Assembly: GCF_001186125.1 (NCBI RefSeq)
Contig: NW_014040345.1
Coordinates: 48,536-112,535 of the forward strand
Length of the DNA: 64,000 bases
Direction: 5' to 3'
Source: Sphaeroforma arctica JP610
Lineage: Eukaryota
The first letter of the stretch is position 1; each line of letters opens with the position of its first letter. Positions 1 to 22,668 of this stretch are shown piece by piece. The translations under genes were made by a program, and so were the position numbers. The notes below the pieces were generated by a model. It worked only from the letters and a program-made list of their open reading frames with translations. It ran no database searches and was not told where the DNA came from.

Positions 1-2
1 TA

Positions 3-2374
3 ATTTCCATCGAAGTTTACACCGACGCGAGCAAGCCGTCCGACGCTGTGTTCCAGATCTCGGCGTATACAAGTGAGTCGGAGCAGGTGCTGTTTGCCCT
101 GGATGGCTGTGACGCCGACAGGCTGCCAGCCATTGAGCTGCGCTCGTTTGACACAGAACCCAAGCTCATTGCGGCCTTCCTGGCGTACATCCACGAAGCT
201 CGCATCAACGTCATTACCGGGTGCAACACGTTTGGCTTTGATTGGGAATATATACTCGGAAGGTGTGCCCAGTTTGGCGTGTCGACTATGGGGTCCTCGT
301 TAAATGGGGTCAGCCAGTCTTCGACGGCCAGTGTCCGGTGGTCATCGTCAGGCGCCGGTGTGGTGGACATCCAGTACCTCAAGATGCCGGGCATAATGTG
401 AACATTTTCAAGGACATGTTCAAGCGCTCGTCGTACAAGCTGGACAGCGTTGCGGCCGACTTTGTGGGTGACCACAAGGACCCCATCACCGTGTCGGACA
501 TCTTTGATGGCTACGAGACAAGCCTCGACACCAAGAGCACCCTGTACACGGATGTGGGACTGTACTGTGTGAAAGATTCGGCCCTTGTACATGTGCTGGC
601 CCACAAGGTCACAGCCCTCATCTACCTGGTGGAGCTGTCGCGCGAGTGCAGCGTGTCCATAGACACCATCCGCATTGCCGGGCAGCAGCATCGCGTGTTT
701 TCAAATATGTACCAGACATTTGCGCCCCGGGGAATTATCCTCAACTACCCTAAGGCCATGCATGTTTCGGGTCGGGACACGCTGGGTGAGTGCCAACGAT
801 CATAAGGAAAATGTGCTGGCCGAGAAAATCAAGATGGCCAAGCGCAAGATTGTCGACGATCGACGATCTGGACTTTGCGTACGAGCCTGAAGAGTTTGAC
901 GAGAACGAACTGGTGGCCGCCAAGTACGAGGGCGCCTGTGTGCTGGAGCCTGTGCCGGGCCTTTATTACAACGTGCTGCAGTACGACTTTGACTCGTTAT
1001 ACCCCAGTGTACTCATGGCCTACAACATCTGCTACAGCACGTACCTGAGCACCGAGCCGCCTCCAAACATGGTCCCGCAGATGTACCACACTGTCAAGTG
1101 GACGTCCAAGGGCGGCGATGAGAACATCCACCACTTCCTCAAGGAGCCGGAGGGCATTGTCCCCAAGCTGCTGCGCGACCTGCTGGGCGTTCGCAAAGCC
1201 GTGAAGAAGATCCTCAAGTCGACTGAGCTGTACACGGTGCAATACAACGTGCTCGACAAGCGGCAGCAGGCGCTCAAAGTGTGCGCCAACTCGATCTACG
1301 GGGTGCTTGGAGTCCAGAAGCACGGCATGCTGCCGCTCAACGAGGGGGCCAGCAGCTGCACGGCGCTTGGCCGAATGTCCCTGGGTATTGCCGTGGCCAA
1401 GTTTGAGGAGCTGGGGGCCACGGTCGTGTACGGTGACACGGACTCGTGCTATGTGACGTTCAACGGTATTGCGGCCGATAACTTTCCGGCGCTCTGGGCT
1501 CCCGCAACGGCCACTGAGAAGGCACTGGAGGCGTGCTTCCCATAAACCCTAAAAACGAGACCATTATATTTTCAAAACGAAGACCTACGTGGCCAACAAA
1601 GTGCTTGTTGAGAAGACGCCATCGGGGGTGACGGAGCTTGTTGCAGTCCCGCCGGAAAGAGATCTCATGGTCAAGGGGCTGACGAAGCGGACCACCGCGC
1701 TTGTGATGAGGGACATCTTTATGAATATGGTTATCAAAATATTCAAAAAGGTGCCCTACACAAGCCTGGTTGAGGACCTGGCGGGGCAGATCCGCCATAT
1801 CTCCCATAACACGATGCGCATCCCACCCCTGTCGTTCTGTAAGAGTGTCCAGGTCAAGGACGCCAAGCACTACAAGATCAGGCCACTCTCCGAGAACCCC
1901 GTGCTGCTGACCAAGCGGCTGCGTGATCTCGATCTACCCGAGTCGACTACGGAGGAGTGCGAGGCTTACAAGCGTACGTGCCTGCCGGGACACATCCTGG
2001 CGAGTGTCAAGATGATGGAGCGGGGGCAACAGATCAGAGCTGGTGACCGTATCGCAGTTCTTGTAGTCCGTGGGGCTCCCAAGCAGCGCCAGCAGGACCG
2101 GATTGTGGACCTTGACTATTTCCAGGAGTCCAGAAAAAATCCCGAGCTGCCACAGTTTTCAATTGACACGGACTACTACATCAATTCCATTGTCAACCCG
2201 CTGGCCGACATCTTTTCCACTGTGTACAAGGTGGACAAGGCCATGGTCAAGGAGGTGTCTATCAAGCGGGGCACATGTCCAACACTACACAAGACTCCGG
2301 AGGACAAGGCGAACGCCGTAGTGGGCAAGGACGGGCGGACCAGAGTGCTGACCCAGTCGACGCTCCAGTTTTAG
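3..2374 (+). pseudogene. polB: Family B DNA polymerase (viral PolB), frameshifted, 5' end outside window
   Basis: ExoII GCNTFGFDWEYI (48..401), SYKLDSVA and ExoIII YCVKDS (242..805). Motif A YDFDSLYPS, motif B KVCANSIYG, motif C YGDTDS (790..1545). C-terminal VKGL...DTDYYINSIVNPL (1589..2374). At least 4 frame breaks, no introns. Confidence 0.95.
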
Positions 2375-2439
2375 GATGTTGTATTTTTATTTTTACAATA
2401 AACATTTTTAATTCTATTTTCTTTTTTTATAGATATTTT

Positions 2440-3294
2440 CTAGAACTCCGTACCCACCAGCCCGTTCTTGGGCGTGTATGGTCGAAGCAGCGCAAATTGA
2501 AGTCGAAGCAGCGCAAATTGAAATTCGTCGGGTACGTTAGTAGCTGCAAAACGTGCCTCCTCAATGTGGCGGGCATCTACCGGCAAAACAAAGGACTCAT
2601 CCTCCATGTTGTGCAGCATGCACAGCTGCGACCTAGCTAGCACAATGCGCTGGATGTGTACACGACGCTTGAGACTAGTGCGGACGAAGAACTTTGAAAC
2701 GTTGTATTTTGTCGCTTTGCTCAGGCTACTTTCAGCAATTGCTGTTTCAATGAGACTGCAGCTGGCTAGGTAGAAGGACTGCAGAAACTCATCCATTTCC
2801 TTGACTATATAGAGTTGGTCGGCAAACAAATACACCACCGTGGCGACTCTGGAGGGCTCGATCGACGCAAGTTTGGCGATCTTTCGGATATAGCCATTTG
2901 CCACAGCTTGGCGACTACCCTTGATGTTCGCGGCGCGTTGCAACTCGCGCAGGGGCACGACCTCAGCATAGTTTGGTTGCAGGCTGACTAGTAGCATAGA
3001 CATGATATCTCGTTTGTGGGGCTGTGGTATTTCTAATCTCTGGTATAAAGTGTAGTCGAAGGCCGGGACAGGTGTGGCCTGGCGGACAATGAGCTCTCTC
3101 TGGCGACTCAAGGTTGACTCGTTGAACATGTCTATAAAGTGTCTGGAAAAGTAACTTGGCTCTAGTTTCGTCATCAGGTATTTATTGACAATGCGTGCAA
3201 CTAGTTCTCGTTCGCGGACACTACTGACCAGCGAGTAGCTGGTAATGTGGCTGAACTGCGCACGGAACGTATCGGGAAAGGGGAGTTGCGACAT
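2440..3294 (-). CDS. Hypothetical viral protein (284 aa), open frame with a 21-bp in-frame duplication at 2481-2522
   Basis: ATG preceded by A-rich TAAATAAATA like neighbouring viral genes; fills the space between AT-rich spacers; no recognised domain. Confidence 0.65.
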   Translation of the reverse strand: MSQLPFPDTFRAQFSHITSYSLVSSVRERELVARIVNKYLMTKLEPSYFSRHFIDMFNESTLSRQRELIVRQATPVPAFDYTLYQRLEIPQPHKRDIMSMLLVSLQPNYAEVVPLRELQRAANIKGSRQAVANGYIRKIAKLASIEPSRVATVVYLFADQLYIVKEMDEFLQSFYLASCSLIETAIAESSLSKATKYNVSKFFVRTSLKRRVHIQRIVLARSQLCMLHNMEDESFVLPVDARHIEEARFAATNVPDEFQFALLRLQFALLRPYTPKNGLVGTEF

Positions 3295-3349
3295 TATTTA
3301 TTTATTAAAATCATCGTATGCAAAGTCAAACACTAATGAAAAAGGAAAA

Positions 3350-5401
3350 TCAGTTTTTCGCGTCTACCGGCATATTGTCCGTCTTATCATCCAGTATCGC
3401 GTCGAGCGAGTTCTTCTGGGCCATGTGCTCAAAGAAGCCCGAGGCACACCCATCATGCACATAGTACTCCTGCGACTCAAGGCTTGCTGTGTACAGGCGG
3501 TACTTGACAAACTCGTTGCCGACCAGAATGTCATTCATGATGGTGGTCTCAATGATGCGCTCCTTCGTCACGTCGCCCCGGACGTACAGGTTCACCGCTA
3601 TGTGCTTGGCGTGGTCAATGACTGGGATCGCCATCTTAACCACGTAGCGCTCGTCCTCAAAGCGAAGCCGAAGTGGACTGGTCATGTTGAACGTCTCAAA
3701 GAAGGTGCGTATGCGTTTCCAGCTCACATGTGTCACAACCCGCTCCAAAATGGGTACCTGGTTGGCGTAGTGGATAAACTAGTGGGAGCTCAGGACCAGT
3801 GCGCACACAAAGGCCTTCTTGGACATGATCATGGTTAGCAGGGGGCCCGCCCGTGGACGGATTAGTTCCCAGGCCTCCAGCCACTTCTGGTTCATGGACG
3901 AGTTGGCGCTGCCATTTATGAGCACCGACATCACATTGCCCATCCCCATGCCGGACTTGTACGAGTGCGCGCGACTTGCATACGTGGCATCCAGCATCAG
4001 CATAATGGCCATATCCTTTAGGGTTTTACGTTGTTACCCGCCATAATGTCCTCGGCCCACATGTTGACCCTCTTGGACCTTGCTGTGACCACATCAGAGA
4101 GCTGGATGAACTTGAAGAGGCTGATGCAAAACTCAATGTCTTCCCCCAGCAGCTGTGCGGCCTGTGTGATGAGCTTGGGGCGCGGGGGCCCGTCCGTGTC
4201 TTTGCCACGGTTACACAGCTCCTCACTGGCCGGGCGGAGATCTAGTGTTGGAGGCCAGCATGTTGCACAGCATTGCATCGCGATTTAGGTACGGGATAAT
4301 GGCCTGCTTGGTGTTGTGTAGCATGATGATCCTGTTCTTGGTGCGCGTGAGCCCCACATGGTGGGTATTGGGCACCTTGAGCGGATCGGCGTCGCCTAAA
4401 CCCTAAAACCCCTAAAATCGGTCCTCGTCCTCGTCGTCCTCGTTGCGGACTGTCATGTCGTCGGACGGCACGTCAATGGGAAACTTAAAGTCTGGTGACC
4501 GCACCAGGTAGCTGATAAAGGTGGAGATGGGCGAGGGCCGGGGGCTGTTGTGCTTGAACGAATGGGCTGTGTGTCGGTCACTGCCGTTGTAGACGCAGCG
4601 CAGCTGCAATGGTTAGCTTGAGGTCCCTGTAGAGGTCCTGCTCGGGGTACGTGGCGTCGCCGTACACAACGTACTCGGGCAACTTGGTGTTGCCAGTCCC
4701 GGTTATAACGTTGGGGCTCTGGGTACTGGTGTTGATGAACTTGCACACGCCGTCTGGGACCCGAAATCTCGTTGAGAGCATGAGGTGGGTCCAGGGCTCG
4801 TTAAAGTACAGCTCGGGCTGGCAAAAGTACGTGTCTGAGGCCCCAGTTGATGGTCTGCAGCGAGTCGCCCACCAGAACCTTCTGGGTGTGCCCGGTCTGG
4901 CCACCGGCAACGGAGCGTAGGGCGTAAAAGTACAGGGGGGAGAGGTCCTGGGCCTCGTCAACAATGACCACGTCGTAGTGGATGTCGAGGGGGTCCTCAA
5001 TAGCCACCATGAGCTGGAGGTCAGTGACAACCGAATACAGCGAGTGGAAGATATGGACGTCCACCGCAAGCCGCCGCCGCCCTCTTGCGCGTGTCCGTTT
5101 TGAGCCACGATGAGTAGGCTAGAATGAGGATCCTTTTTCCTATGGCCTCGCGACTGAGGCGGTCAACGATGGCCAGCATGGTGAAGGTCTTGCCCGCACC
5201 GGCACAGGCCATGAGGGTGACTTTGTCGCCGCGGGCAACGGCATCTATGGCCATCTGCTGCTCGGCGGTCGGGGCTCGGAGGCCGTGTCCGTGGGGTGTG
5301 GGTTGGTGGGAGGGTGCGGGTGTGCGTGTGAGGTTGGGTCGGGGGGCAAGTGTGATGGGTGTGTTATCCACGGGCATGACTGGTTGAGTAGCAATCAACA
5401 T
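3350..5401 (-). pseudogene. SF1 (UvrD/REP-like) helicase, multiply frameshifted
   Basis: Walker A ACAGAGKT, ILAYS, FHS, Walker B IVDEAQD, motif III VGDSLQTI, LSTRFR. Motif VI-like HHVGLTRTKN read at ~4335-4375. Downstream fragments (4018..4278, 3779..4012, 3350..3748) are inferred to be its C-terminal extension. Confidence 0.85.
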
Positions 5402-5536
5402 GGTTGTGTGCTGTAGCTGTGTGTTGTTTGTAATGTAGATGTGCACATGTAAACTGAATTGTGGGCCTTGCAAACACGCATGTATATTGAAAATTCAATT
5501 ATTCATTTTATTTTTATATTTTTGAATGCTCATAGA

Positions 5537-6920
5537 CTAGGACTGGCTGATCGACCCTTGGACGATTTTTGGTTTGTTTTGGAGTTTCTCGTCCAGCAGC
5601 CCATGGTAGTATACCTCGTAGTTCCCGCGCTGCATATCCGCATACGTCACCTTGGCCACATACTCTGTGTTGGGCTTGGTCTTGTCTGGGCGCAGCTTGA
5701 CAAACTCAAACTGCCCAGCCTCGTACCTATACTCGGCAATGCAGTCCTTCGTAAACCGCGCGTGGAACGGCACCCGCTTGTCTTCAAATGGCACCAGGCC
5801 ATCGCGGGTCCCAACTATCAGCACAGAGTGCTTCTCCCTATCGGGCAGCGCCTCCACTGGCCTCACCCGAAAGTCTATAGACTGCAGCTTCTGTGGCTTG
5901 AACTTGATCACCCCGCCGGCGTACACGCTCGCCAGCTTGAAGCACACCCCGTCGTGCACTGCGAGGTCCAGCCCCCCAAACAGCTCCCTGTACATGCCCC
6001 CTGGGTATGTCTGGATGATCTGCAGCCTGTACTTGTCCACGGCCACGGTACCGTCGGGACCCAGCATCGTCTGCAGCATTGCGCGGCGGGCCGCAAAGGG
6101 CTTCTCAATCCACACCTCATTGTGCACCATCACCAGGTCCAGCACGTGCACAACGTCTCCACACACCTCGCAGTCCAGCACCGTGGCCCTGCTAGGCCTA
6201 CGAACCGCTGTGACGCCTCGCCAATGGGCACCACCTCGCCCGTGATGTACACCAAGTACGCGAGGTCACCACACCACCAGCAGGGCGCGCGACCCGTCGT
6301 ACTTGTACATGACCACTGAGTCGGGGGCAATGGGGGTTGTTGGCAACAGCGTGCCCGCCTGTGCGATGGGGAAAGTCAGCTTGCCCATGATGCGCATCGC
6401 CAACAGCTCACCGTAGATGGTCTGTGACCACACACGGTCCGGGATCAGCACCTCGCGTACAAACGTATTGACGCTGGGCACAAACTCGTCGTCCTGGAAC
6501 CCAAACTCGGACATTGCAACGCCGCCCTCGAGCTCAATCTCTATCATGTACATCTTGAACCCCGCCGTCATGGTATCCACAAACTCGACGGTGTACGTCG
6601 CCGGCCCCGCGGACAGCTTGACACCTGAAAAATTGGTGGTGGTCTTGATGCGACTCACACCGACAAGTTCATCCTCTCCAACTGATTCACTGGGGGTCTT
6701 TGATGAGACGTAGTACGCCCAGTGGGCAAACCTAAACAGCGCAAGTGTGCGCTTGCACTCCCAGACTGTGTTGTTGTCGTCAAACGACGTCACTGAGCGC
6801 AGCCCATCTTTAGAACCATTGTGCATCGTCTGCGTGAGCCGCTTCTCGTACACGGGTGGCCCATTGAGATGGCGCATGCGATACATGCACACGGGCCTCA
6901 ATCTCAATTTTCTCGGACAT
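5537..6920 (-). pseudogene. mRNA capping enzyme: TTM-type RNA triphosphatase + guanylyltransferase, frameshifted
   Basis: Start MSEKIEIEAR (6920; ExExR) and YMIEIELE (triphosphate-tunnel motifs). GTase motifs I KYDG, III LDCE, IIIa VLDL, IV HDGVCF, V KFKP..SIDF and VI RPDK..PN spread over three frames. Confidence 0.88.
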
Positions 6921-7009
6921 GGCGGTTGCGTTAATCTTTTTTTGTTGTTGCATTTGTATATACATATATACGTGTATACAAATGATAGCTTTTCGTTTTT
7001 TTTCTTCTT

Positions 7010-7710
7010 CTATACAAGCGTGGTCTCAAGGTTGTTGGTACTGTATCCACACTGCACGGTAAACGACAGGGGGTACGCGGTGTTGTACTCGGCCACCGTC
7101 ATGGGCTTGTGGGCTGCCTGTCCTGGCGTATGACCCCAGAAGAAAGGGAAGAATACATAGAACGGGAATATGGTAATGTGCGAAAATATGCTGTACAGTA
7201 CATGGTCAAACATTAGCGGCCCAGTCCTCTCAAATGGATGAGCCGTAGGGCACCCCCAGAAGAACATAGGTTGCAGCTTCAGCAGCGTGTAGGTGATCAG
7301 GTTGCCGCGCGAGCTCCCAATCACACTATTTGCGAGCCCCCGGGCATTCTCCTTCTCTTGTCCTACAAAAGGCCTGTGCGGTTGCACGCTGTAATGATGG
7401 ACCCAAAGTCCTTGCCCAGATCCACCATGTCGCTGTCAATGTAGATGCCGCCATACTTGTACAAGATCTCAAGCCGCGCAACGTCTGCCTTACCACAGTA
7501 CTGTGGTTCAGCGTCAAATACTGCACTGTTCTCCGTTAGCACACTGCGGATATTGTTGTTGTCCCAGAGCATGTACTCGAACCCGTTTGCCGCACACCAG
7601 GTCCTAAACGTCGCCATCCACCCAAGCACAGCTGCTGGTGCCTCTTTTCCATGTTGCACACGGGCATTTTGTGCCAGCCCGTTGATGCGGTCCACAAGGT
7701 CCGAATGCAT
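7010..7710 (-). pseudogene. GT32 / DXD-motif glycosyltransferase, one frameshift near 7370
   Basis: ADVARLEILYKYGGIYIDSD signature (7363..7710), continuing into LANSVIGS in 7010..7387. Confidence 0.85.
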
Positions 7711-7751
7711 TTTTTTTTTGTGATTTATTGAATGTTCTATTTTATTTTATT

Positions 7752-8481
7752 TTAAAATGAGTACCGTTTATTCTTCTTATTATCCATGACCATAAAGGCT
7801 ACTACACCCAATACGACCAACACAGCAACTCCAACACCCCCAATAAGAAGCCAGTTTGTCTCTGGCTCCTCTTCTTCCTCCACTGAGGCAACTGCAATTG
7901 CTTCCACCACTTCGCCACTGACACCCTCGTCGTCCTCCTCCTCCTCAACAACCTCTTCCTCTACTACCTCTTCTGTTGCAACCGTGTTGTTGGCGATAAA
8001 GGCGTTCAGACCACTTCCACTGGTCACAATCCTGAACCGGAATTTGTCCACAACGACACCACCCGTAATATCGTCTGGTACAAACGTCTGGTTAGAATCC
8101 TTGGTCGCAAATTTCACGCCGTCGTCCGTCTTTATTCGGACGACGGACTCATTTGTATCACTGGACACTGGGGTCACTGTGAAGACGGTTTTCGTTGAGC
8201 TATCCGATGACACAACCACAATCCCCTGCTGAAAGTATATATACCCACCGTTGATACTCATGGTGTACTTGTTGGGCTTGTCACTGACAGGGTCGAACCG
8301 TATGTCGACTCCATTGGTACCGTACCCCAGACGACCCCAGACGCTGGGGTGTTGCCGAGAGTGAACTGACGTTCATGGCACCCTTGTTCAGCTGTAGATC
8401 GATGCGGCCCACGGCTTTATCCAACACGCTGAGTTGCTTCTCAAGACCCGTGTTGAGTAGGGCATAGTCTATCGTGCTCAT
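7752..8481 (-). pseudogene. Membrane protein with acidic stalk and C-terminal TM helix; probably one gene split into 8281..8481 and 7752..8261
   Basis: E/V-rich acidic tract, hydrophobic WLLIGGVGVAVLVVLGVVAFMVM, basic tail. The fusion of the two ORFs is inferred. Confidence 0.55.
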
Positions 8482-8606
8482 GACGGTTTACACACAGATG
8501 GTTTATATAGACTTGGAAAAAATGGGTTTTTTATTAAATAGATTAAAAATTCGAACAGACCTTGCAAGTTTTTGTTTTTTTTCTTCAAGTTCTAAACGGC
8601 TAATGT

Positions 8607-8822
8607 ATGAATAAAATGAACAAAAAATCCGCAAAGCGTAGCACCAAGGTCATCCAAAGGGAGATTGATGACCGCGTAATCGAGATCCAGGCGCCAACGT
8701 CCTCCATCAACTGGTCACTCGTGTTTGCACTCGCTGTCCTGGGGCTCTCTTCGATCCTCGCCATGGTTGCGTATACCAGGCGAATCCCAAATATCAACAG
8801 TCAAAAATCACGCCCATCGTAA
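8607..8822 (+). CDS. Small single-TM hypothetical viral protein (71 aa)
   Basis: ATG after AT-rich spacer; one hydrophobic segment WSLVFALAVLGLSSILAMVAY. Confidence 0.45.
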   Translation: MNKMNKKSAKRSTKVIQREIDDRVIEIQAPTSSINWSLVFALAVLGLSSILAMVAYTRRIPNINSQKSRPS

Positions 8823-10247
8823 AAGCTCGACGTTATGTTTTGGATTATACCTCATGTAGTGAGATTCCCAGAAAGAGTGAGACCCAAGCTTAAAAGACGA
8901 CGGGTACGGCTTGGCCCTGTAGTAAAACAGCCGATTCCTCCAGTTGTTGCCGTAAACATTGCGATCTCCAACGAGGGCCATGAATGGAGTCGCAGTGACA
9001 ATATTGAAGATTTCGATGAACAGTTTTTTAGATGGCACAAAGCTAAAGAACTCATCGTAGAGTCGATCGCGTTCGGATACTGGGTCCGTACCCATCGTGA
9101 TGATGGCATTCATAGATTTGCGCACCTCTGGTGTCACATTCGTATACTGCTGCCCACACAGAAGTATAAAGATCGAGTAGTGGCGAGAGTTGTTGAATAC
9201 TGCCGATAGCTTGTTAAGCTGCGAGCGGTAGCCACTAATATCGTCCATTACCATGGCCATGTTGCTGCGGGTGTGTAACTCACCACCAATATGATTTTCC
9301 CGCTTAACAACATTATACTGCTTCTGGGTATTTGCGACGCTCTGGATGGTTTCGGCCGTCACCTCATCTGTCACATAGTGGAACGCTTCTGGGATGATGG
9401 GGGCCCAATCGTTAGATACAGCGGACTTATTCCCGGTAAACAGCACTGTAGAGTCAAACATGCCCCGCTTTTCATACAGCAGCGACTTTAAATTGTCGAG
9501 TTGTGGGTCACCGTGTCGTCGGCGAAGCAGTAAAGGCCGTCTATAGACACCTCCACCCCGACATACGGCTCCGCAGCAGAGATGTTCTTAGTCACACGAA
9601 CATATCCACCAATGCCACTGTCTGGTGCACGGGCATACTGAATAGTGCCGTCCGAACACGTTTTACAGGCATAGCCGTCGTGGTAGCTGAGAACGGTGGA
9701 TGTTGTGGACTCTCATGGTTGCGTGATTGATACGACAATGAATAAACGTTGTCGTCAGCACATCAAACGTTGAAGGATCAAGTCGGCTGTAGGCACGACA
9801 GTTGGATACCCTTCATACAACCCGTAGGTAGGTACATCGAGGTGTGAGAAGTACACTTTCCGCTGTGCACACGACAATCGACTCGGTTTTGACATTGTAG
9901 AGCACGAGCTTGTGGTCCCCCGTAACCACATATGGATCACTGTCAGCCTGGTGGATCGTGTACATCTGATCGATACCGCGGACCTTGTTGAGGACCCGGC
10001 GTGGGCGGATGTCAGGACACAGGAGCAGGTCCCCAACAACCACCTTGTCAATCCGTTGAAGAACCCCTGAGCACATCTTGACGAGAGTGTCGGGCGCCAT
10101 GCACTTACCAAGGCCACTGCGCCCACATACGAGGACCTTGGACCCGTCCATGGACTCTTCGTCACCCCGTTTCCAGGGACTAATACTGTCGGGATTCCAT
10201 TCTTTGAGATGAAGTTTGTCCAGTGTTGTATCGGTGGTTTTGGACAT
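8808..10247 (-). pseudogene. A32-like virion packaging ATPase interrupted by an intein
   Basis: N-extein KLHLKEWNPDSISP...VLVCGRSGLGK. C-extein S-T-I then (frameshift) KSLLYEKRGMFD. Walker B MVMDD, A32 motif NSRHYSIFILLCGQ, C-terminal LFYYRAK..FKLGSHSFW. Confidence 0.92.
9500..10103 (-). mobile_element. Mini-intein (Hint domain) in the Walker A of the A32 ATPase, internally degraded
   Basis: Block A CMAPDTLVKM begins right after GK (10103). Block B YVVTGDHKLVL. Blocks F/G YVGVEV..DGLYCFADDTVTHN end at 9500, followed by Ser+1. 604 nt, internal frameshift/stop, no LAGLIDADG seen. Confidence 0.92.
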
Positions 10248-10360
10248 CGTGTGTGTATGTGTGTCTTTTTGTTTCTGTTCCACCTCGACTATAACGTATG
10301 TTACACACCTAAACTTGGTTTTTTATATATTTTGCTTTTGAATATAATAAACTGTCAACT

Positions 10361-11041
10361 ATGGGGGGTAATATATCAAAGAGTTTTCGCGAGCAGACAA
10401 TGACCATGGTGAGCGATGTGTTTGTGTCCGCATCTACAGACATATCGAACCAGACAAGCAGCAACAACATCTCCCTGCAGACTATAATCTTTAATGGCAC
10501 GTATGGCGGCAACTTTACCTCGTCACAGACGTCAGACATTACCTCCAAGACGGTGCAGGTGGTTGTCAACAGCACGTCGAACGAGGTCACGAGCGCCATA
10601 GAGAACATGCTGATTGACTGGTTCGAGCAGAATCTGGATCAAACCCAGGATGGACTGACAACGTCCAAGAACAAGTCGGAAGTCGTGGACATTGTGAGGC
10701 AGTCCGTCCACTCCAACATTGACGCCGTCTTCAAGACCAGGGTCGACAACACACTAAAGTCTACCAACTCGTCCACACAGTCTTACAGTTTTGTGGGTAA
10801 GGTGGAGGGCGACTGCCAAATGGACCAGACGTCAATCATTGACTCCTTGTCTGAGCAGTTTGCCACGACACTTGTGCAGAATGTGCTGGACTTGCTGGGG
10901 GTCATCACAACCGACAAGGAGTCCACCCTGAACACGTCCCAGGAGAACACCGGCTCGTTTAGCACAACCATGCTTATCATGCTGGCCATTATTGCGGTTG
11001 CGATCCTGGCCATTGTCATTATATTTAAATTCAAGAAATAG
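10361..11041 (+). CDS. Myristoylated membrane protein (poxvirus L1R/F9L-like NCLDV family), intact 226 aa
   Basis: MGGNISKS N-myristoylation motif, S/T/N/Q-rich body, C-terminal TM (MLIMLAIIAVAILAIVIIF) plus KFKK; adjacent to A32. Confidence 0.75.
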   Translation: MGGNISKSFREQTMTMVSDVFVSASTDISNQTSSNNISLQTIIFNGTYGGNFTSSQTSDITSKTVQVVVNSTSNEVTSAIENMLIDWFEQNLDQTQDGLTTSKNKSEVVDIVRQSVHSNIDAVFKTRVDNTLKSTNSSTQSYSFVGKVEGDCQMDQTSIIDSLSEQFATTLVQNVLDLLGVITTDKESTLNTSQENTGSFSTTMLIMLAIIAVAILAIVIIFKFKK

Positions 11042-12648
11042 CTATTGTTTCATATAGATGTTGACGGTTTTCTGCACGTCTTGCATCATAGCCATAAGGC
11101 GTTTGTTCACATTATATATGTATCCAATCTGATCTGCGAGGTCAACATGAACGACCTGGAGGTCTGGGGTTGATTGCGATTTGGGTTGTGGGGTTGATTG
11201 CGATTTGGGTTGTGGGGTTGATTGCGATTTGGGTTGTGGGGTTGATTGCGATTTGGGTTGTGGGGTTGATTGCGATTTGGGTTGTGGGGTTGATTGCGAT
11301 TTGGGTTGTGGGGTTGGGGTGCTTTGTGATCCGACCTTGTCTGAACCTGATGTCTCACATTCATTACTCTTGCACCCCATGACGTTTGTCCCCCACATCC
11401 ATTCTGTCCATGTTTTTGGACGCTGCTCCCCAATAGTGACTGCGTGGAATAGTATGGTCTTGGTACGTAACGTAGTTAGAGGTATACTAGTGCTGGTGGT
11501 TTTGGCCTTCTTCGTCAGGGCGGAAATCTTTGCCCACAGCTCATGTAGACTCTCGTCGGCACGACTGGCTTTCAGGGCGTTCTTGATATCCCCCCTCTGC
11601 CCCATAATGAGTTCACACACATCCTTTGGAATCTCCTTGTGGTCCTTGAGATATGTCAACAGCTCATTTGCCTCATCGACCAACTCGCTACTCGTGGGTC
11701 TCTTGAGTGCCTTAATCACCTCTTGTGTACTTAATATAGAAGAAGGGAGAACTGAACTCTTCTTATCAGCCCTGTGCCGCTTTCTGTGCATTGTGACACT
11801 CTCAGCGCGGTCCCAGAGCTCAAGAGTTGTCCTGTCCATTTTCAGAATTTTTAGGTCGTTAATAATTTGGGCAATATCCTTCAGCGCCGTCTTCCTCTGG
11901 TTGTATGAACTGTCTGCATTTGTAATATCTCTAGCATCGTTGCGTAGCCTATTGTAGAACGCTTCAATCTGTGGATTCCCAACAGGCTCCGGGATATCCA
12001 TTTGTCCGTACGTCTTTAGATGGGCTTCCTCTGCTGTCGCACCACGCCATACCGGTTGAACCATGGTAATTTGTCCTTCTCAGCCTTCATCTTGGTAATC
12101 CACTATTCCAGAATACGCTGATCATTGTGAAATACCCGTTTAAAATAGCGGACTTCCGTTGTGTTCCCGCTAGGTTGTATGCGCTGGTTTGGTATATTAA
12201 CCAGGGACCATGCTTCGTGCAGGGTATCTGGAGCCTCATTGTCTCTCAACATCTTTAAGATGTGGGGCTTCTGGTTGTTCACATATGTTGCTATAGGTTA
12301 AGGTATCGACTCCATGCTGTCAAGGTACATTTTCAGCAGGCTGGCCCGATTAACAAGGTCCTGGAGAGAATACTCTAAATATTTTGCAATTGCCAGCGAC
12401 ATGTAAAATAATATCTTGTCTACAAGTTCGTTGTACGTCGCAGAGGTCTTCGCCCCATCGGAATCGTTCAGCTTTGCAAACAGCGATTCCCAATTCTTGA
12501 TCACCCGGGGGTCGTATTTGATCTTTTTGAGATCCGCGATAATGTCCTCCACCTTGGTGACCACCTCTTGTATTTGGTCAACTGGCAAAGACGCAACATA
12601 TGTGCTAATATCACGTGGTGCGTCTGACAAAATGATTTTTTTACTCAT
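11042..12648 (-). pseudogene. Orphan viral gene, tandem paralog A (disrupted)
   Basis: 12298..12648 + 11042..12064 align by eye to paralog B (MSKKIILSDAP/MSKNISLSDAP; PEPVGNPQIEAFYNR; DKKSSVLP). In-frame TAA after ESIP. Confidence 0.7.
11167..11310. repeat. 24-bp coding tandem repeat x6 (PQPKSQST on - strand)
   Basis: GGGTTGATTGCGATTTGGGTTGTG repeated six times. Confidence 0.95.
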
Positions 12649-12662
12649 TTTTTATTTATAGA

Positions 12663-14126
12663 TTAAAAAAAACTATGAATCTCTATGATCATGTCGTGTG
12701 CGTTGTTAATCCGAGCTGTGAGGTCGGAGAGGTCAGAAAGGTCGGCATGAATGGCCTGGAGGTCGTTATGGATGCCCTGGGTGTCTACTTGCGCGTTCTG
12801 TTCGGAGACCATGTTGCTGTCTGATGTGAATTCGTCTGGGCTTGATACCTCATACTCATCACTATTGTACACTGGGGGATTTGCATCCCATATCTTTTCT
12901 TTCCATGTTTGTGGCCGCTGCTCTTGAAAATTGACTGCGTGGTACAGTATGGTCTTGGCACGTAACAGTTTTTTTGGCCTACTAGTGCTGGTGGTGTTGG
13001 CTCTCTTCGTCATTGCGGTAATCTTTGCCCACAGCTCCTGCAGACTCGGGTCGGCTCGACTGGCATACAGGACGTCCTTGATATCCTCCCTCTGCACCAG
13101 AATGAGTTCATACACATCCTTTGGAATCTCGTAGTGTCCCTTGAGATATTTAAATAGCTCGCTTGCCTCTTCGAGCAACTCACTACTCGTGGGCCTCTCG
13201 AGAGCCTTAATCGCCTGTTGTGTACTGTATATCGCAAAGGGGAGCACTGAACTCTTCTTATCAACAGTGCACCGCTTTGTTGCCTTCGTTATACTCGCAG
13301 CGCGTTTCCACAGCTCAATAGTTATTGAGTCCAATTGCAGAGTCCTTAGGTCTTGGATAATTTTTGCAATATCCTTTATTGCCGACTTCCTCTGGTTGTA
13401 TGAATTGTCTGCATTGTAATATCTCTGGTGTCGTTGCGTACCCTATTGTAGAACGCTTCAATCTGTGGATTCCCAACAGGCTCCGGGTTGTTCAGTGTCT
13501 CGTACGTTTTCCTGTAGACGTTCTCCACCTTCGCCCCACTCCGAAATATATATCTGTTTATCCATGTCTCATTGTCCTTCTCGGCCTTCATCTTGGCAAT
13601 CCACTGTTCTAGGATCTGCTGATCATTTTCAAATACCCGTTTAAAATGGCGGGTTTCAGTCGTGTCCACACCAGGTTGTACGAGGTATCTAGGAATATCA
13701 ATCCGCGACCAGACGTCGCGCAAAACTGGTGGAACCGATGCGGGGCATGTTGTGATTCACATATATTGCTATAGGTTCAGGTATCGACTCCAGCGTGTCA
13801 AAGTACCTTTTCAGCAGGCTGGCCTGATTGACAAGGTCCTGAAGGGAATAATTTACCTGTTTCGCAATTTCTAGCGATGTGTAAAATAGTATCCTGTCTA
13901 CTTGTTTGTTGTATGCTGTGGAGGTATTAGTTCCATTGGAATCGTTCAGCTTCGCAAGCAGCGATTTCCAGTTCGTGATCACCCCGGAGCTGTATTTGAT
14001 CCTTTTGAGATCCGCGATAATGTCCTCCACCTTGGCGACCACCTCTCGCGATTGGTCGACTGGCAAAGACGCAACAGATGTACCAATAACACCTGGTGCA
14101 TCTGACAAACTGATATTTTTACTCAT
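12663..14126 (-). pseudogene. Orphan viral gene, tandem paralog B (disrupted)
   Basis: Fragments 13698..14126, 13376..13723 and 12663..13334 are collinear with paralog A. Confidence 0.7.
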
Positions 14127-14172
14127 TATTTTTAATTTTATTTTTATTCAGTCGTAAAAAATATATAAATCG

Positions 14173-15080
14173 CTATTTTAGTTTCTGCAGCAGCCGGAGA
14201 CTCATCAGCCGAAACCTTCGCGGGTACACCCGGTGCGTCATGGTGTTGCATCTATACAAGACGGCCTGCCCCTCGGCCGTCCCACCTACCACCAACCACC
14301 GCATCCCCGCTGGGATCTTGCTCGTACCTTCCAGTAGACTATCCCATCGCGCCAACTCAGCACAACGGGGCAGGAACTGGCCATAGAGGGGCACGAGGGT
14401 ACTGTCTGCCGCGCTAGGAGCCGCCGGGCCCATCATGACCAGGGCCTTCGCGAGATAGTCCTCGGGATCTACGGGCGTAAGGACCGTGGCCGAGCTCAGG
14501 ACCACAACCGGGGCACAGCCAAACATGTCTTTCGTGTAGTGGTCCATGCCCCTGGGTAGCTGGGTCTCGTCTGTGTACATCTGCTGCAGGAACTTGTTGT
14601 AGCGGCACACGACAAAGCGACAACCACCGGCCTTTACCGTCCCCCCGGTGACAACGTAGCACATGTTGGCCCACTGGTCCTTTGCAATCCCGTACGTGAG
14701 ATGCAACGCAGATGGTCTCAGGGGCGCGTCAATCTCGTTTGACAGCGCATAGTATAAGAAGGGGACAGTGTTCGGAGCCATGCGCAACCACGACACGGTC
14801 CCGGCAGTGGGGGGGGGGGGGGGGTGGTGGCGGCAGAGTCTCGTGTGCACAGTAACCGTGGTCGCTCGGTGCGCCCAGTGGGGGCAGGGTACTGGAGCCG
14901 CCCCCGTGTGGCTCGGGGGTTTTTAAAAGAAGCTCAGTGCCAGAGTCGTTGTCCCACTCCATGACCTCCGTGGCATGCTCTAGGGGTGGCATGGGGTTCA
15001 GCAGTGGCAGGGGTTTTAGGGTTTAGGTCATGGAGCTCGAGTTCTACGTCGAGGTTAAGATCAGTATTCAAGTCAAACAT
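14173..15080 (-). pseudogene. Hypothetical viral gene, frameshifted
   Basis: ATG at 15080 (MFDLNTDL) continuing through 14729..14992 and 14173..14850; breaks include a poly-G run near 14810; no domain recognised. Confidence 0.5.
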
Positions 15081-15124
15081 TGTAAAAATGATTTGTAGTC
15101 TCACGCGCAATGACCATATATATC

Positions 15125-15212
15125 CACCTGGGCACCAACGCCCACTGAGCATGAAGTGACACCTGGGCACCAACGCCCACTGAGCATGAAGTGACACCTG
15201 GGCACCAACGCC
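15125..15212. repeat. 35-bp tandem repeat x2.5
   Basis: CACCTGGGCACCAACGCCCACTGAGCATGAAGTGA units start at 15125, 15160 and 15195. Confidence 0.95.
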
Positions 15213-15506
15213 GTATGTGCGTCATCGCACCGACGGTCACATTAACCGCGATTATTGTTTCACAGTAACACCGTGCTCCGATTCCGTATACCCAGTGACG
15301 TTTCGTACTTTGATGCACGTAATCTCTGTGAGAATCCAGGCCTAGAAATCCTCGTACAGCGAAACGCTGCTTTTGCAGACTTTTCACCCGCCGTTGACAA
15401 GTCGGGGGTCAGCATTATCACCTGCAGACTGAAACTACTTCGTGAATCGCATCCCCAAACGGCGTCTTGATCGAGTCGGGGAACTCGCCGCCGCTTGGCC
15501 TGATCT

Positions 15507-16062
15507 TGTTGCGCTCGTACTCTAAAGCAGTACGTATACTAAAAACGTACTCTTAATAGTACAAGGAACTTAAGTTTCCCAAATGGTTTTAAATGGTTTT
15601 ATTAATTAATACCTTTTCCATTTTACATATCAGATATTTGGACAAAGCCATTACAAGGCCCCAGTAAAATACCAAACATAAGGGTTGGTCTAGTTCTAAT
15701 AATAGAACTATGTTTACTTTCCAACTTTATTTATATCTGAATACTTCGGTAGCGAGATGGCTCAACCGAATATAGGTTTCTAGGGACTATTAGCGTAACC
15801 TAGTTGATTCTCCGATCAGCCAACCAGATGTGCCAGTCTGATGAAGGCTAAGTCGGTAATTCTTGATAAGTGGCAAGTTATTGGTTAAGACAATAACTAA
15901 GGACATCAAGAGTAAAAATAATTTCTAATAGAGCGACAACGAAACACTAAATAAAATTCCTTCGGTACTGAGAAGATTATATATAGGCAATGTCTCAGCC
16001 TCACAATCCGTTTATTTACTTTTATATTTTCACGATACTTAGAATTTACCTAAGGTATTAAT
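15507..16062 (+). repeat. 5' LTR (truncated, with internal deletions)
   Basis: Matches ~22703-23413 (e.g. GGAACTTAAGTTTCC, CCGATCAGCCAACCAGATGTGCCAGTCTGATGAAGGCTAAG, CACGATACTTAGAATTTACCTA) with substitutions and several indels. Confidence 0.88.
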
Positions 16063-16162
16063 TACTTAAACTACTTAAGCGTAAAGGTAGATTAACTACC
16101 ACAAAAATTTTCTTGTCCAAGCTAGTCCTTAAGAGACAAGCTAGTAGTCATAAATTAAGATT

Positions 16163-18367
16163 ATGACCAAGAAAGACAATAATCCTTCTAAGGAGCATAA
16201 AGCTGAAAAGAAGAAGATGGAGAGAGAAGCCGCCAACGCTACCGCAGCTACTGCTGCCGCAGAGGCAACCGCTGCCGAATCTGACAATAATAGTCAAAAG
16301 GACAATGCTTCAGATAAGGATGTAGCCACTCCGATTAAGGAGACTACTCCCACTGACAGAGCCCGAGGGCCAACTATTGTCTCAACTTCAAAGCTTGCAT
16401 TTACGAAGCCAAGAAGTCAGACAAGGGACACGTCACAAGACGCCCCAACCTATTCTTCTGACGAAACTCAGAATGGAAAGTCCCCAATTATAGGGGACAA
16501 GGACAAATCTCAGAAGGAACCTATTATGGAACCAGAAGAGGAGGCAAGCTCAAGTGGCAAACCCGAATTCACGTCCGAGACTACTAAGCCAATGCACATA
16601 AGTAAGTTAATTACTGAAAACGCTGATCTTAAGAATCAGTTAGCTACCATTATGAAAGACTTGACTGTCGAACATGTAAATCAATTATATAGATCAGGAA
16701 AACATGCACAGCACTTACGCGAGCATGTTTCCCCGGGCATTACTGAAGCCCTACAGAAGTGGACAGAACGTCGACAGGCAATTACGCCCGAAGAACGTAA
16801 AGACTCGAGCGCTACACCTGTGGCATATGAGCCAGATGTGCTCATCGTATCTATACCTTACGAGGTATTACCACCAGAAATTCAGGCTAATTACTCACCT
16901 GTTCTGACACCCGGCTGTGAGTCACCCGTCCTTGAGGGTATTATAGACCCAGAGGCAGGTAGAAATACTCCGCCACTTTTACCCAATTGGGATGACAATC
17001 GTCGGAAACTAGTTAAGACTGTGTATGTTATCCAGACGCATGAATCACCTAATATTATAATATCAACCACTATCCGAGGAACAGAACACCAAAAGGCCTC
17101 GACCATGGACTTTACAAGGGGTAATAAACACCCCCGTAAACGTGTTAACGAAATCGAATTTAATCGCTTCGATCGCACAGCACTACATCAACCCGCAGAG
17201 GATTTTCACTCTGACGAGGTGACCGAACTTAACAAATCGGTCGACGATTATACCATTAAAATGGAAATCGCCCACGATGCGCATCATGCTGATGATGTAG
17301 CATACTTTGCGAATATGACTGCGATTAAGCAAAAGCGCATTGATCAGTTACTTCAGGCCCAACGTGGACAAGACCACAGAGACAACCAGAAGTACAAGGG
17401 ACAGATCAGTCGACTTAAGTCGAATTGGGATGCCAACAGTAAGCAGGTCAAGTTTATAAAAAACCATGACCTCGACACGCTAACCCGTACGCTTAATGCG
17501 TTTACGGTCATGCTAGAGACGAATGATATCGCTCCCCAGCAATGGATCTCTACTTTAATGCAGACGTTTGACCCTACAGGTACAAGTTATTCGATCATAC
17601 AGCGACAACAACATGAGCTAGACACTTGTCGTGACTGGCCAGCTGTGTGTTGGTTGGTTACATCCTTGTTAAGTAAGGACATGCGTAGCCCAGGACTGAG
17701 TTCAATTTTAACTGAACCAGTTGAGAACACGCCCATTCAAAGTTATATTCTGAAGCTAGATGCTGACCTGAAACATTCAGATATAGCGAAGGACAAGGCA
17801 CAGCGATGGTACGAGTTCCTGGCTATGCCCGTGTTCTGTAAGAACATAGGGAATAACAACCGTGAGAGCCTGTACACCGAGTTGCGACGTAAACACGCGA
17901 CTGAGGCTCGAGACAGGGGACATGGAACAAAGTTTCATCTATCCCGACTTACGTGGGAACAGTTTTATGACACTGTATCCACCCTTTTCCCTGCACACCG
18001 AGTAACATCGAAGGGAAAAGTGGCTGTTAAGAAGCCGCGGGAGTACACCGATCAAGGATACGTATCCAGGCAGACCTCAAACGAGAAACACCAACATACA
18101 CGTGCTCGCGACCCCACTCTATCCACGGGACCCAATAAACGGGCACGCGCGGAGGCAAAGGACAAGGAACCTCCATTTAAAGAGATTAAGAAATGTTCCG
18201 ACGCACAGCGTGGGTATGACAGGTACCAATTGACCCATAACAGTTATTGGAATGGCAGGCATGCATCCGCCTGTACACACTTTCCTATTAAGTGCGACAA
18301 GTGTGAGAAGACCAATGGCTATCACACTAAGTCTTGTGACAAAAAGCCCAACATTAAGTTGGAGTGA
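16163..18367 (+). CDS. gag: Gag-like protein (734 aa)
   Basis: Long ORF after the 5' LTR; C-terminal Zn-knuckle-like CDKCEKTNGYHTKSC; directly upstream of the protease. Confidence 0.8.
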   Translation: MTKKDNNPSKEHKAEKKKMEREAANATAATAAAEATAAESDNNSQKDNASDKDVATPIKETTPTDRARGPTIVSTSKLAFTKPRSQTRDTSQDAPTYSSDETQNGKSPIIGDKDKSQKEPIMEPEEEASSSGKPEFTSETTKPMHISKLITENADLKNQLATIMKDLTVEHVNQLYRSGKHAQHLREHVSPGITEALQKWTERRQAITPEERKDSSATPVAYEPDVLIVSIPYEVLPPEIQANYSPVLTPGCESPVLEGIIDPEAGRNTPPLLPNWDDNRRKLVKTVYVIQTHESPNIIISTTIRGTEHQKASTMDFTRGNKHPRKRVNEIEFNRFDRTALHQPAEDFHSDEVTELNKSVDDYTIKMEIAHDAHHADDVAYFANMTAIKQKRIDQLLQAQRGQDHRDNQKYKGQISRLKSNWDANSKQVKFIKNHDLDTLTRTLNAFTVMLETNDIAPQQWISTLMQTFDPTGTSYSIIQRQQHELDTCRDWPAVCWLVTSLLSKDMRSPGLSSILTEPVENTPIQSYILKLDADLKHSDIAKDKAQRWYEFLAMPVFCKNIGNNNRESLYTELRRKHATEARDRGHGTKFHLSRLTWEQFYDTVSTLFPAHRVTSKGKVAVKKPREYTDQGYVSRQTSNEKHQHTRARDPTLSTGPNKRARAEAKDKEPPFKEIKKCSDAQRGYDRYQLTHNSYWNGRHASACTHFPIKCDKCEKTNGYHTKSCDKKPNIKLE

Positions 18368-21300: not shown

Positions 21301-22532
21301 ATGTTCCATGGCGCAGGGTCACCATTGATCTGGCTGACCTGCCCACGTCCGAGCACACAGGCGACCGTTACGTATGCCACTTTTTTGATGTGGCGTCACG
21401 GTTTAACTTGCTCTATCCATTAAAGGATAAGAATACGCAGACCGTGGCCGAATTATGTTGCCAAGTCTTTGCTGACCACGGGTGGCCAGGTATTATGTGC
21501 ACTGATAACGGTAGTGAGTTCTGCGATGACGTAATGGAATTGCTAGTACTCGTACCAGGCATATGCCATAAGAGAGGTGTGCCATATAAGCCGCAAACGC
21601 AAGGCGCGAATGAAACGCGCCATAGAAGACTTAAGTTCTTCTTGCGTACTACATTAACGGATGATGCAGATGATTAGTCATATCACCTTAACTGTATACA
21701 AACACAGATGAACGAGTGTGCTGATCCGGTTACAGGAACTACACCCGCTCACTATTTTCGTGGCAGATATAGTGAGTTACAAATCCCTTTTAACAAGGAC
21801 GAACATGATCACCATGAGTTACCATGGTTAGAGAAGGTACAACGTATTTATAACGTTGTATATCCTTGCTTGCGAGAATTACGCAATATAGCCCTATTAA
21901 AAAGGCAAAAGCGTTGGAACACTACCAAGAAGATACCAGAGTATCAGGTTGGTGACAGAGTTAAAATCCGTCAACGCAATTCCGATGCTACTGTATTAAC
22001 ATCTAAATGGATAGGTCCATATATAATCTCGGTAGCAGACACTAAAAGTGAAACGTACGAGGTAAATAACCCCGATGGTTCTAGTGCGCTTAATATGGGC
22101 ACAAGTCGTATCCCGACTACAGAGATTATACTCGCAAGAAGACATGACTCTAATGCCCCTCTTGATCGTTCTGAATTTAAAGACATTATATGGAGAACGG
22201 ATAAGGGAGGCTATACATACTATCGTAAATGCTTTATAGACGGTACAATAGCTGAGTTGACTTCAGATGCTTTCGATAATCAAGAGTATTTAAAAGCCTT
22301 TAATCGAAAATGGCGTAAATGCCTGCATAAGTCACAAGCTGAAAAAGATAGCATGTTTCCATCGTCTGAAGGCACAGAAGTTAAAACTTATCCGCCTACA
22401 TCATTTATCCCGAGCTTTCATGCTCATCCTTCATATGTGCTTAAGACATTGAAGCGTAAGAAACATCTAGTCGACCACCACGGACCTACCGGACCTAAGC
22501 CCAAAACTCACAGGGTAACCGAGAACGCTTAA
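18368..22532 (+). pseudogene. pol: Pol: protease, RT, RNase H, N6-adenine MTase, integrase
   Basis: PR ALIDPGSEISCI; RT FTTIDL and YIDD (19424-19435); RH IATDASD...DMLSR. INT HRLKH...CTDC, VTIDL, TDNGSEF, PQTQGANE, KWIGPY. Frameshifts near 19840 and 20400, in-frame TAG at 21675. Confidence 0.93.
20257..20660 (+). other. Dam-like (DIRS-type) DNA N6-adenine methyltransferase domain within pol
   Basis: DWKCNPRWF...FGPHTIDMFA (SAM-binding motif, 20320-20334)...DAFK, then after a 1-nt frameshift IDLSEHNAWANPPWQLI (catalytic NPPW 20430-20441)...ITLCSP....PWLNKL. Confidence 0.85.
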
Positions 22533-22668
22533 CTTCTCCGCTTGAGAAACATTAACTATATGTTAAGCTACTTAATGTTTCGACCCGTTTTTCCTTTCTC
22601 GCTTTTTGACCCATAATCAGCTTGAGTGAGCAACTTGCTTCTCATGGGTCTTAAAGCTGGGTGGGAGC

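What the first reader, a model, noticed from the sequence alone, without database searches (positions are those of the whole stretch)
9500..10103. Intein inserted in the P-loop of the viral A32 packaging ATPase
Seen: GRSGLGK|CMAPDT...VTHN|ST. Removing 604 nt restores the Walker A GRSGLGKST, with canonical Cys1, His-Asn and Ser+1. The C-terminal splice junction is absent from the ORF track. Established: inteins favour P-loops, and the N-terminal part resembles VMA-type Hint domains. Inference: an endonuclease-less mini-intein at a less commonly reported NCLDV site, now fossilised in a nuclear genome. This is a possible route for inteins moving between viruses and eukaryotes.
Basis: partly seen in the sequence, partly recalled or inferred. 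Interest (0 to 1): 0.78.

Follow-up and report, generated by a model that had tools for sequence, protein, structure and literature searches.

The report
Dead intein in endogenous giant-virus ATPase
A giant-virus DNA-packaging gene, likely integrated in the genome of the protist Sphaeroforma arctica, carries a real but now broken self-excising protein insert (intein) in its ATP-binding loop; related viruses often carry an insert at the same bond, so this is likely an ordinary fossil, not a route into host genes.

Summary
On the minus strand a 604-nt Hom_end-type intein (Cys1, TGDH, His-Asn, Ser+1) splits Walker A GRSGLGK|ST of an A32 ATPase. It is dead: at least two lesions lie in the intein, and a further frame break lies three codons into the C-extein. 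The same letters stand in 3 of 4 laid runs. The window is a Sphaeroforma arctica contig. The same genome holds an annotated unbroken sister, SARC_04065, with an allelic intein; the two are sisters in the intein tree and the extein tree. No endonuclease signal remains. The site is not rare: 36 of 149 A32 hits carry inteins, 17 at this bond, one from Pirum gemmata. An intein-containing A32 is already annotated in Marseillevirus LCMAC101. Inteins in endogenous viral genes, and the virus-to-eukaryote route, are published. This scan found A32 inteins before on other DNA. Verdict: real; new member of a known kind; modest interest.

The parts
10104..10247 (-). A32 N-extein, 48 codons, from ATG to Walker A GRSGLGK
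   Evidence: 51% identical (22 of 43) to SARC_04065; letter for letter the start of gene model SARC_03978
9500..10103 (-). Intein, 604 nt, Cys1 ... Val-Thr-His-Asn; broken
9864..10103 (-). N-terminal Hint region (residues 1-80), block A Cys1 and block B TGDH (residues 61-64, 9912-9923)
   Evidence: Pfam Hom_end_hint 44.2 bits; PI-SceI E 5e-4; 58% (46 of 80) to the SARC_04065 intein
9668..9863 (-). Linker where the endonuclease sits in longer relatives; holds the lesions (stop 9813-9815 in the Cys1 frame and a net frame change); no endonuclease signal
   Evidence: the exact path between frames is not resolved (frame A 101 of 1000 shuffles as good)
9500..9667 (-). C-terminal Hint region (last 56 codons), blocks F and G ending His-Asn
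   Evidence: last 36 residues 58% (21 of 36) to SARC_04065
9491..9499 (-). First three C-extein codons (Ser+1, Thr, Ile); the frame breaks right after, near 9489
8808..9488 (-). Rest of the A32 C-extein (226 codons and stop), with the AMVMDD, CGQQY and EVRKS motifs also present in SARC_04065
   Evidence: Pfam Pox_A32; 925 relatives at E<=0.001; 56% (126 of 226) to SARC_04065
9712..9856 (-). 145-nt intron implied by the NCBI gene model SARC_03978 (GTGTAC...CATGAG), which bridges the intein's lesions; no read support
   Evidence: no joint in 4 of 4 laid runs, none of them on record as RNA
1..15400 (.). Giant-virus island (left end outside the window, right end approximate): PolB in four pieces, helicase piece, glycosyltransferase, A32, tandem gene duplicate; GC 52%, dense intron-free frames
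15516..23386 (+). Decayed Ty3/gypsy-type LTR retrotransposon between the viral island and host-like DNA (LTRs about 92% alike)
   Evidence: RVT_1, RT_RNaseH, rve; repeats

Best explanation
This is a broken class 1 intein of the Hom_end/VMA type in the Walker A loop of an A32 packaging ATPase, likely inherited already endonuclease-less from a giant virus whose DNA likely integrated into the Sphaeroforma arctica genome and has decayed since. In the live virus (inferred from standard intein chemistry) the precursor was translated whole; Cys1, helped by block B Thr/His, took the N-extein as a thioester, passed it to Ser+1, and His-assisted Asn cyclisation released the intein, joining Lys to Ser and rebuilding GxxGxGKS. 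Because unspliced A32 would lack a working P-loop, the splicing core was kept by selection while the endonuclease eroded. The intein was probably present in the common ancestor of the two viruses now in this genome. After integration selection lapsed, and the gene broke in the intein and in the C-extein, as PolB did nearby. Today this copy cannot give an active ATPase or a homing enzyme.
For: Shown: junctions and catalytic residues; Hint and A32 profile hits; gap-free Walker A with intein-free A32; breaks present in 3 of 4 laid runs that cover them, from 3 studies, one of them possibly the window's source. Host: gene model SARC_03978 matches the window letter for letter on a contig of the same length as the window's C-extein protein. 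Sister: SARC_04065, 528 aa, same bond; loose ends of a second contig in two laid runs encode two of its peptides; its model has a confident Hint and ATPase and matches Prp8 and PI-SceI inteins and STIV B204. Co-descent: window and SARC_04065 are sisters in the Hint tree (100/100) and in the extein tree (100); identity is 58% in both Hint parts, 56% in the C-extein, 33% in the linker. No endonuclease signal: Pfam none; linker profile of 35 relatives no better than shuffles; hhalign probability 0.1% for the sister's linker, against 93-97% for 5 of 9 control linkers. Integration: no N gap between 1 and 29467, an LTR element and intron-rich host genes follow; PMC5294986 reports S. arctica viral genes in islands amid eukaryotic genes.
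Against: Splicing was not tested. The virus-host junction was not checked with reads. PMC11244446 reports no reliable ViralRecall hit in S. arctica. SARC_04065 was seen only as a protein; its gene model could hide breaks, as SARC_03978 does. Four of the 9 control linkers also scored low in hhalign (2-26%), so a faint remnant cannot be excluded, and the sister's linker is modelled at pLDDT under 50. Deep branches of both trees are weak (27 of 38 and 54 of 118 inner branches open).
Confidence: 0.88

Rival explanations
1. The breaks are assembly errors and the gene is an intact intein-bearing A32 of a live or reactivatable virus.
For: The first assembly era included low-depth runs, and an unbroken sister exists.
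Against: X13 and X5 span 8500-11100 in one contig with no differing letter or gap, and X16 covers 8976-10228 with no difference inside the intein or at 9489. PolB lies in four pieces across three frames, and other genes are split too.
Confidence: 0.02
2. A host spliceosomal intron (9856-9712, as in gene model SARC_03978) removes the broken linker, so the locus makes a 204-residue protein with a whole Hint domain: a re-opened, possibly domesticated self-cleaving module.
For: The model exists in NCBI; its intron removes both intein lesions; its product folds with Hint-N and Hint-C blocks at pLDDT 77-95. PMC10710043 notes intron gain in endogenous viral genes of algae.
Against: The ends are GTGTAC and GAG; a GAG acceptor is disfavoured (own knowledge). 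The cut removes the helix-plus-strand that the three shortest natural inteins keep, and the junction folds at pLDDT under 50. The neighbouring viral genes are intron-free and decaying. Gene finders often invent introns across breaks (own knowledge).
Confidence: 0.04
3. The intein reached this A32 recently by non-allelic homing from another P-loop gene (for example a viral SF2 helicase with the same GLGK|C junction), or is in transit to a host gene.
For: The first search hit was an SF2 helicase with an intein at GLGK|C; two more helicase inteins appeared; the same-bond label is scattered over the A32 tree (13 changes for 14 rows; 220 of 500 shuffles as low); P-loop to P-loop moves are published.
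Against: The nearest intein by far is the allelic one in SARC_04065 (score 381 against 189 for the next; helicase intein 153), on a long shared stem. No host-gene intein of S. arctica surfaced. No endonuclease is left to drive homing. An ancient non-allelic origin remains open.
Confidence: 0.06

Closest known systems
Intein-containing packaging ATPase of Marseillevirus LCMAC101 (UniProt A0A481YRS3; PMC6401483 Data Set, file 9 row 898)
   Same: A32 ATPase with an intein; top BFVD match to the sister's model, E 7e-28
   Different: 659 aa, from a free-virus bin of sediment; the annotation gives no site, and I did not see its sequence; the main text never mentions inteins
SARC_04065 of Sphaeroforma arctica (KNC83706.1)
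   Same: Same bond, same Cys1/TGDH/His-Asn/Ser+1, sister in both trees, no endonuclease signal
   Different: Annotated as one unbroken 528-aa protein; intein 242 aa with a longer linker; on another contig (112,087 nt); named only hypothetical / Hom-end Hint protein
PI-SceI (yeast VMA1 intein) and fungal Prp8 inteins; Pfam Hom_end_hint PF05203
   Same: Hint family, class 1 termini
   Different: PI-SceI keeps a LAGLIDADG endonuclease and sits in a cellular gene at another site; here the endonuclease is undetectable and the frame is broken
Inteins in endogenous viral DNA polymerases of Klebsormidium, Tetrabaena and Hondaea (PMC10710043, section read)
   Same: Viral intein-bearing gene on a nuclear scaffold of a eukaryote; the same proposed virus-to-host route
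   Different: Host protein is A32, not PolB; host is an ichthyosporean; this copy is a pseudogene

Membership tests
Class 1 intein | Hint domain by profile or fold | tested here: met
   Hom_end_hint 44.2 bits, cut-off 32.1; Hint-C profile E 9e-7; sister's model matches solved inteins
Class 1 intein | Cys/Ser at 1, block B TxxH, His-Asn at the end, Ser/Thr/Cys at +1 | tested here: met
   C1, T61-G-D-H64, H-N, S+1
Class 1 intein | Insert interrupts a host protein whose flanks are contiguous in intein-free homologues | tested here: met
   gap-free Walker A against intein-free A32 rows
Class 1 intein | In-frame, translatable precursor | tested here: not met
   604 nt, stops in all three frames of the linker, second break near 9489; met only by the annotated sister SARC_04065
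Class 1 intein | Protein splicing activity | not testable with these tools
   no assay
Full-length homing intein (LAGLIDADG) | Endonuclease domain between Hint halves | tested here: not met
   no Hom_end or LAGLIDADG_3 hit; no signal above shuffles; 8 of 35 related A32 proteins do hit Hom_end at E<=0.01
Minimal mini-intein | Hint core with only a short loop | tested here: not met
   201 codon-equivalents against 136, 138, 141 for the three shortest of 40 relatives
NCLDV A32 packaging ATPase | Pox_A32 profile, Walker A and B, FtsK/HerA-type fold | tested here: met
   sister's model matches STIV B204, HerA, FtsK and viral A32 models
Giant endogenous viral element | NCLDV core genes joined to host DNA on one scaffold | tested here: inconclusive
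   met in the assembly and in PMC5294986; the junction was not checked with reads
Giant endogenous viral element | Stable presence and decay | tested here: met
   20 listed runs of 7 studies hold all or part of the stretch, 5 marked as possible source; broken PolB and A32

The most novel reading that the evidence does not exclude
The host has re-opened the dead viral intein with a spliceosomal intron that cuts out exactly the broken linker, as gene model SARC_03978 has it, so that an animal relative expresses a virus-derived, self-cleaving Hint protein; with the unbroken sister SARC_04065 and the Pirum copy, ichthyosporeans would then be a place where viral inteins are domesticated.
Probability: 0.04. 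Interest if true: 0.72.

Novelty: new member of a known kind. Interest (0 to 1): 0.3.

Why it matters
Modest. It adds A32 to the intein-bearing viral genes seen inside nuclear genomes and, as far as my searches reach, a first case in ichthyosporeans. The pair in one genome, one annotated whole and one broken, is a small natural record of how an intein loses its endonuclease in the virus and then dies after integration. The survey shows two intein sites three residues apart in the A32 Walker A loop, both filled in 4 proteins. This matters in practice because A32 is a standard marker gene: inteins split its profile hits and can hide it. It does not show transfer into host genes.

Tried and rejected
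No whole genome was held. The search for related loci in viral contigs found no relative of the C-extein or of the intein. The word-indexed protein search found only the window's own C-extein among 67 candidates and one helicase among 175; the HMMER library search was needed. No RNA holder listed; X5 is only guessed RNA, so the absence of a joint says nothing on splicing. Pfam and NCBIfam gave no hit for the intein's C-terminal part; TIGR01445 scored 13.7 against a cut-off of 24.5. The reading frame through the linker could not be fixed: frame A scored best against the sister but not above shuffles (101 of 1000; 66 of 300); one stop plus one shift, or three shifts, both fit. An endonuclease remnant was sought by HMM and hhalign and not found. 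No second intein in the window. A read check of the virus-host junction was not obtained, so integration rests on the assembly and on print. The VIA comparison was not run. The scan's notes held nothing for this genome or for SARC_04065. Rejected: hedgehog-type or bacterial intein-like Hint (the insert has both splice junctions inside a conserved host protein); class 3 intein (Cys1 is present); polinton ATPase (neighbours are NCLDV-type, relatives and folds are A32).

Full report
Observation. The feature is on the minus strand. An ATG at 10247 opens 48 codons that end in Walker A GRSGLGK; Cys follows at 10103; VTHN ends at 9500; Ser-Thr-Ile follow. The insert is 604 nt. Its first 70 residues hit Pfam Hom_end_hint at 44.2 bits (cut-off 32.1) and the downstream frame hits Pox_A32 at 26.7 bits (cut-off 22.8). 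PI-SceI is the best solved sequence match, E 5e-4. The C-terminal end is missed by Pfam and NCBIfam but hits a profile made from 7 related inteins, E 9e-7. The exteins, read in order, align without a gap through the P-loop with intein-free A32 proteins.

Damage. The Cys1 frame stops at 9813-9815, and the His-Asn frame has stops at 9755-9757 and 9713-9715, so at least two lesions lie in the intein. A frameshift-aware alignment to the closest relative places a stop at 9813, a frame change near 9668 and a further frame break near 9489, three codons into the C-extein. The path through the linker is not fixed. The breaks are not assembly errors. Of 4 runs laid, X13 (possibly the window's source) and X5 span 8500-11100 with no difference, X16 covers 8976-10228 with none inside the intein or at 9489, and X19 covers only parts. 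PolB lies in four pieces, so the island as a whole is decaying.

Host and setting. NCBI gene model SARC_03978 of Sphaeroforma arctica matches the window letter for letter in two blocks and lies on a contig of 112,709 nt, the length also given for the window's C-extein protein. Bases 1 to about 15,400 have 52% GC and dense intron-free frames. A Ty3-type element (15516-23386, LTRs about 92% alike) follows, then 40% GC DNA, and host genes beyond 40 kb. The first N gap is at 29468. PMC5294986 (passages, Table 1 and section 3.3 read) reports S. arctica DNA polymerase and ATPase genes of the Iridoviridae/Marseilleviridae cluster in islands among eukaryotic genes, and never mentions inteins; its Fig. 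S5 and Dataset S1 were not visible. Against this, PMC11244446 (passages) found no reliable ViralRecall hit in S. arctica. The junction was not checked with reads.

A sister copy. The best non-self hit in 1.84 billion representatives is P0003 (E 3e-83), which is SARC_04065 of the same species, on another contig. It is annotated as one 528-aa protein with a 242-aa intein at the same bond. In two laid runs a second contig matches 9156-9214 with 11 differences, and its loose ends encode two SARC_04065 peptides. Its AlphaFold model (pLDDT 74; linker under 50) matches Prp8 and PI-SceI inteins and the STIV B204 packaging ATPase. The two copies are sisters in a Hint tree of 41 rows (100/100; P0110 left out) and in an extein tree of 121 rows (100; 29 of 149 hits dropped for lacking a recognisable Walker A, for length, or as partial). 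Identity is 46 of 80 in Hint-N, 21 of 36 in Hint-C, 126 of 226 in the C-extein and 21 of 63 in the linker. I infer that the intein was in the common ancestor of the two viruses and that its splicing core stayed under selection while they were alive. I saw SARC_04065 only as a protein, so hidden breaks are possible.

Endonuclease. Neither copy hits Hom_end or LAGLIDADG_3, whereas 8 of 35 intein-bearing A32 proteins scanned hit Hom_end at E<=0.01, among them P0029 at the same bond. A profile of 35 linkers scores both copies no better than shuffles. hhalign gives 0.1% for the sister's linker, against 93-97% for 5 of 9 controls and 2-26% for the other 4. So it is endonuclease-less, yet longer than the minimal inteins of 136-141 residues in the set.

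How common. Of 149 non-self hits (the best 150 of 925 were listed), 36 carry at least one intein, 40 in all: 17 at the window's GK|S/T bond and 23 three residues upstream; 4 proteins have both. These are 50%-identity representatives, which inflates the share, so this is not a frequency. One same-bond case is from Pirum gemmata. The same-bond label is scattered on the extein tree (13 changes for 14 rows, 220 of 500 shuffles as low), as expected of repeated gain and loss, though that tree is weakly supported.

What is known. The top viral fold match is A0A481YRS3, 'Intein-containing packaging ATPase' of Marseillevirus LCMAC101, annotated so in the supplement of PMC6401483 (file 9, row 898) but not in its main text (passages). 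PMC10710043 (passages and section 8) reports inteins in viral DNA polymerases on nuclear scaffolds, homing between unrelated P-loops, and the virus-to-eukaryote route. It does not name A32 in the main text or in the 2 readable supplements; its SI Appendix and Datasets S1 and S2 could not be read and may list it. PMC5784728 (passages and 4 supplements) lists no A32 or Sphaeroforma intein; control terms were found. PMC5871332 and PMC13768754 (passages) add none. Listings of searches showed no paper on A32 inteins by title or abstract start. Two earlier notes of this scan describe decayed A32 inteins on other DNA and call them common; I checked the commonness myself.

Mechanism. Shown: position, catalytic residues, contiguity of exteins, breaks, lack of endonuclease signal, sister relation. 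Inferred from established class 1 intein chemistry: N-S shift at Cys1 aided by block B, transfer to Ser+1, Asn cyclisation aided by the penultimate His, and rejoining of Walker A Lys to Ser, on which packaging would depend. Inferred from context: integration followed by neutral decay. Today the copy can make at most a 144-residue fragment and a separate C-extein piece without Walker A.

Rivals. Assembly error is nearly excluded. The annotated intron (9856-9712) would give a 204-residue protein with a joined Hint that folds in part. But it has GTGTAC and GAG ends, removes an element that natural mini-inteins keep, and is untested on RNA; I give it 4%. Recent non-allelic arrival or transit to a host gene has no support: the allelic sister is by far the nearest intein and no host-gene intein surfaced.

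Verdict. Real and correctly spotted; a new member of a known kind. Interest 0.3.

Noticed in passing
P0004-P0148 (hits): A second intein site three residues upstream in the same Walker A loop (e.g. GKPG|TGK) holds 23 of the 40 inteins; 4 proteins (P0005, P0007, P0046, P0148) carry inteins at both sites, separated by three extein residues.
   Followed up: partly
P0025: A 664-aa A32 with a 334-aa intein at the same GK| bond is listed only from Pirum gemmata, another ichthyosporean; its extein lies on a different branch from the Sphaeroforma pair. Integration not checked.
   Followed up: partly
P0008, P0011, P0044, P0068, P0124, P0143, P0128, P0148, P0076: Non-His penultimate residues, all at the upstream site: Arg-Asn 6, Lys-Asn 2, Ser-Asn 1 of 40 inteins.
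   Followed up: no
window 3-2371 (+): Viral family B DNA polymerase in four pieces over three frames; no intein seen in the part inside the window.
   Followed up: partly
window 11045-14147 (-): Tandem duplication of an unknown viral gene pair, 78% alike over 1343 nt; one copy has six 24-nt repeats (QSTPQPKS), the other is split.
   Followed up: no
window 10367-11041 (+): Unbroken 224-codon frame starting MGGN with a C-terminal hydrophobic stretch; no Pfam hit; resemblance to myristoylated NCLDV membrane proteins is recalled, not tested.
   Followed up: no
window 5540-7009 (-): Split frames with a YKYDG motif that recalls an mRNA capping enzyme (recalled; no Pfam hit).
   Followed up: no
window 7366-7746 (-): DXD glycosyltransferase (Gly_transf_sug, 43.7 bits) in the viral island.
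   Followed up: no
window 15516-23386 (+): Ty3/gypsy-type element with broken pol frames and LTRs about 92% alike, directly beside the viral island.
   Followed up: partly
window 49598-50029 (+) and 61458-62999 (-): Host-type genes: a MIF4G domain piece amid AT-repeat DNA, and an unbroken sugar transporter.
   Followed up: no
PMC11244446 versus this window: That paper reports no reliable giant-virus hit in S. arctica by ViralRecall, whereas this contig holds at least 15 kb of NCLDV genes and a second A32 lies on another contig.
   Followed up: partly
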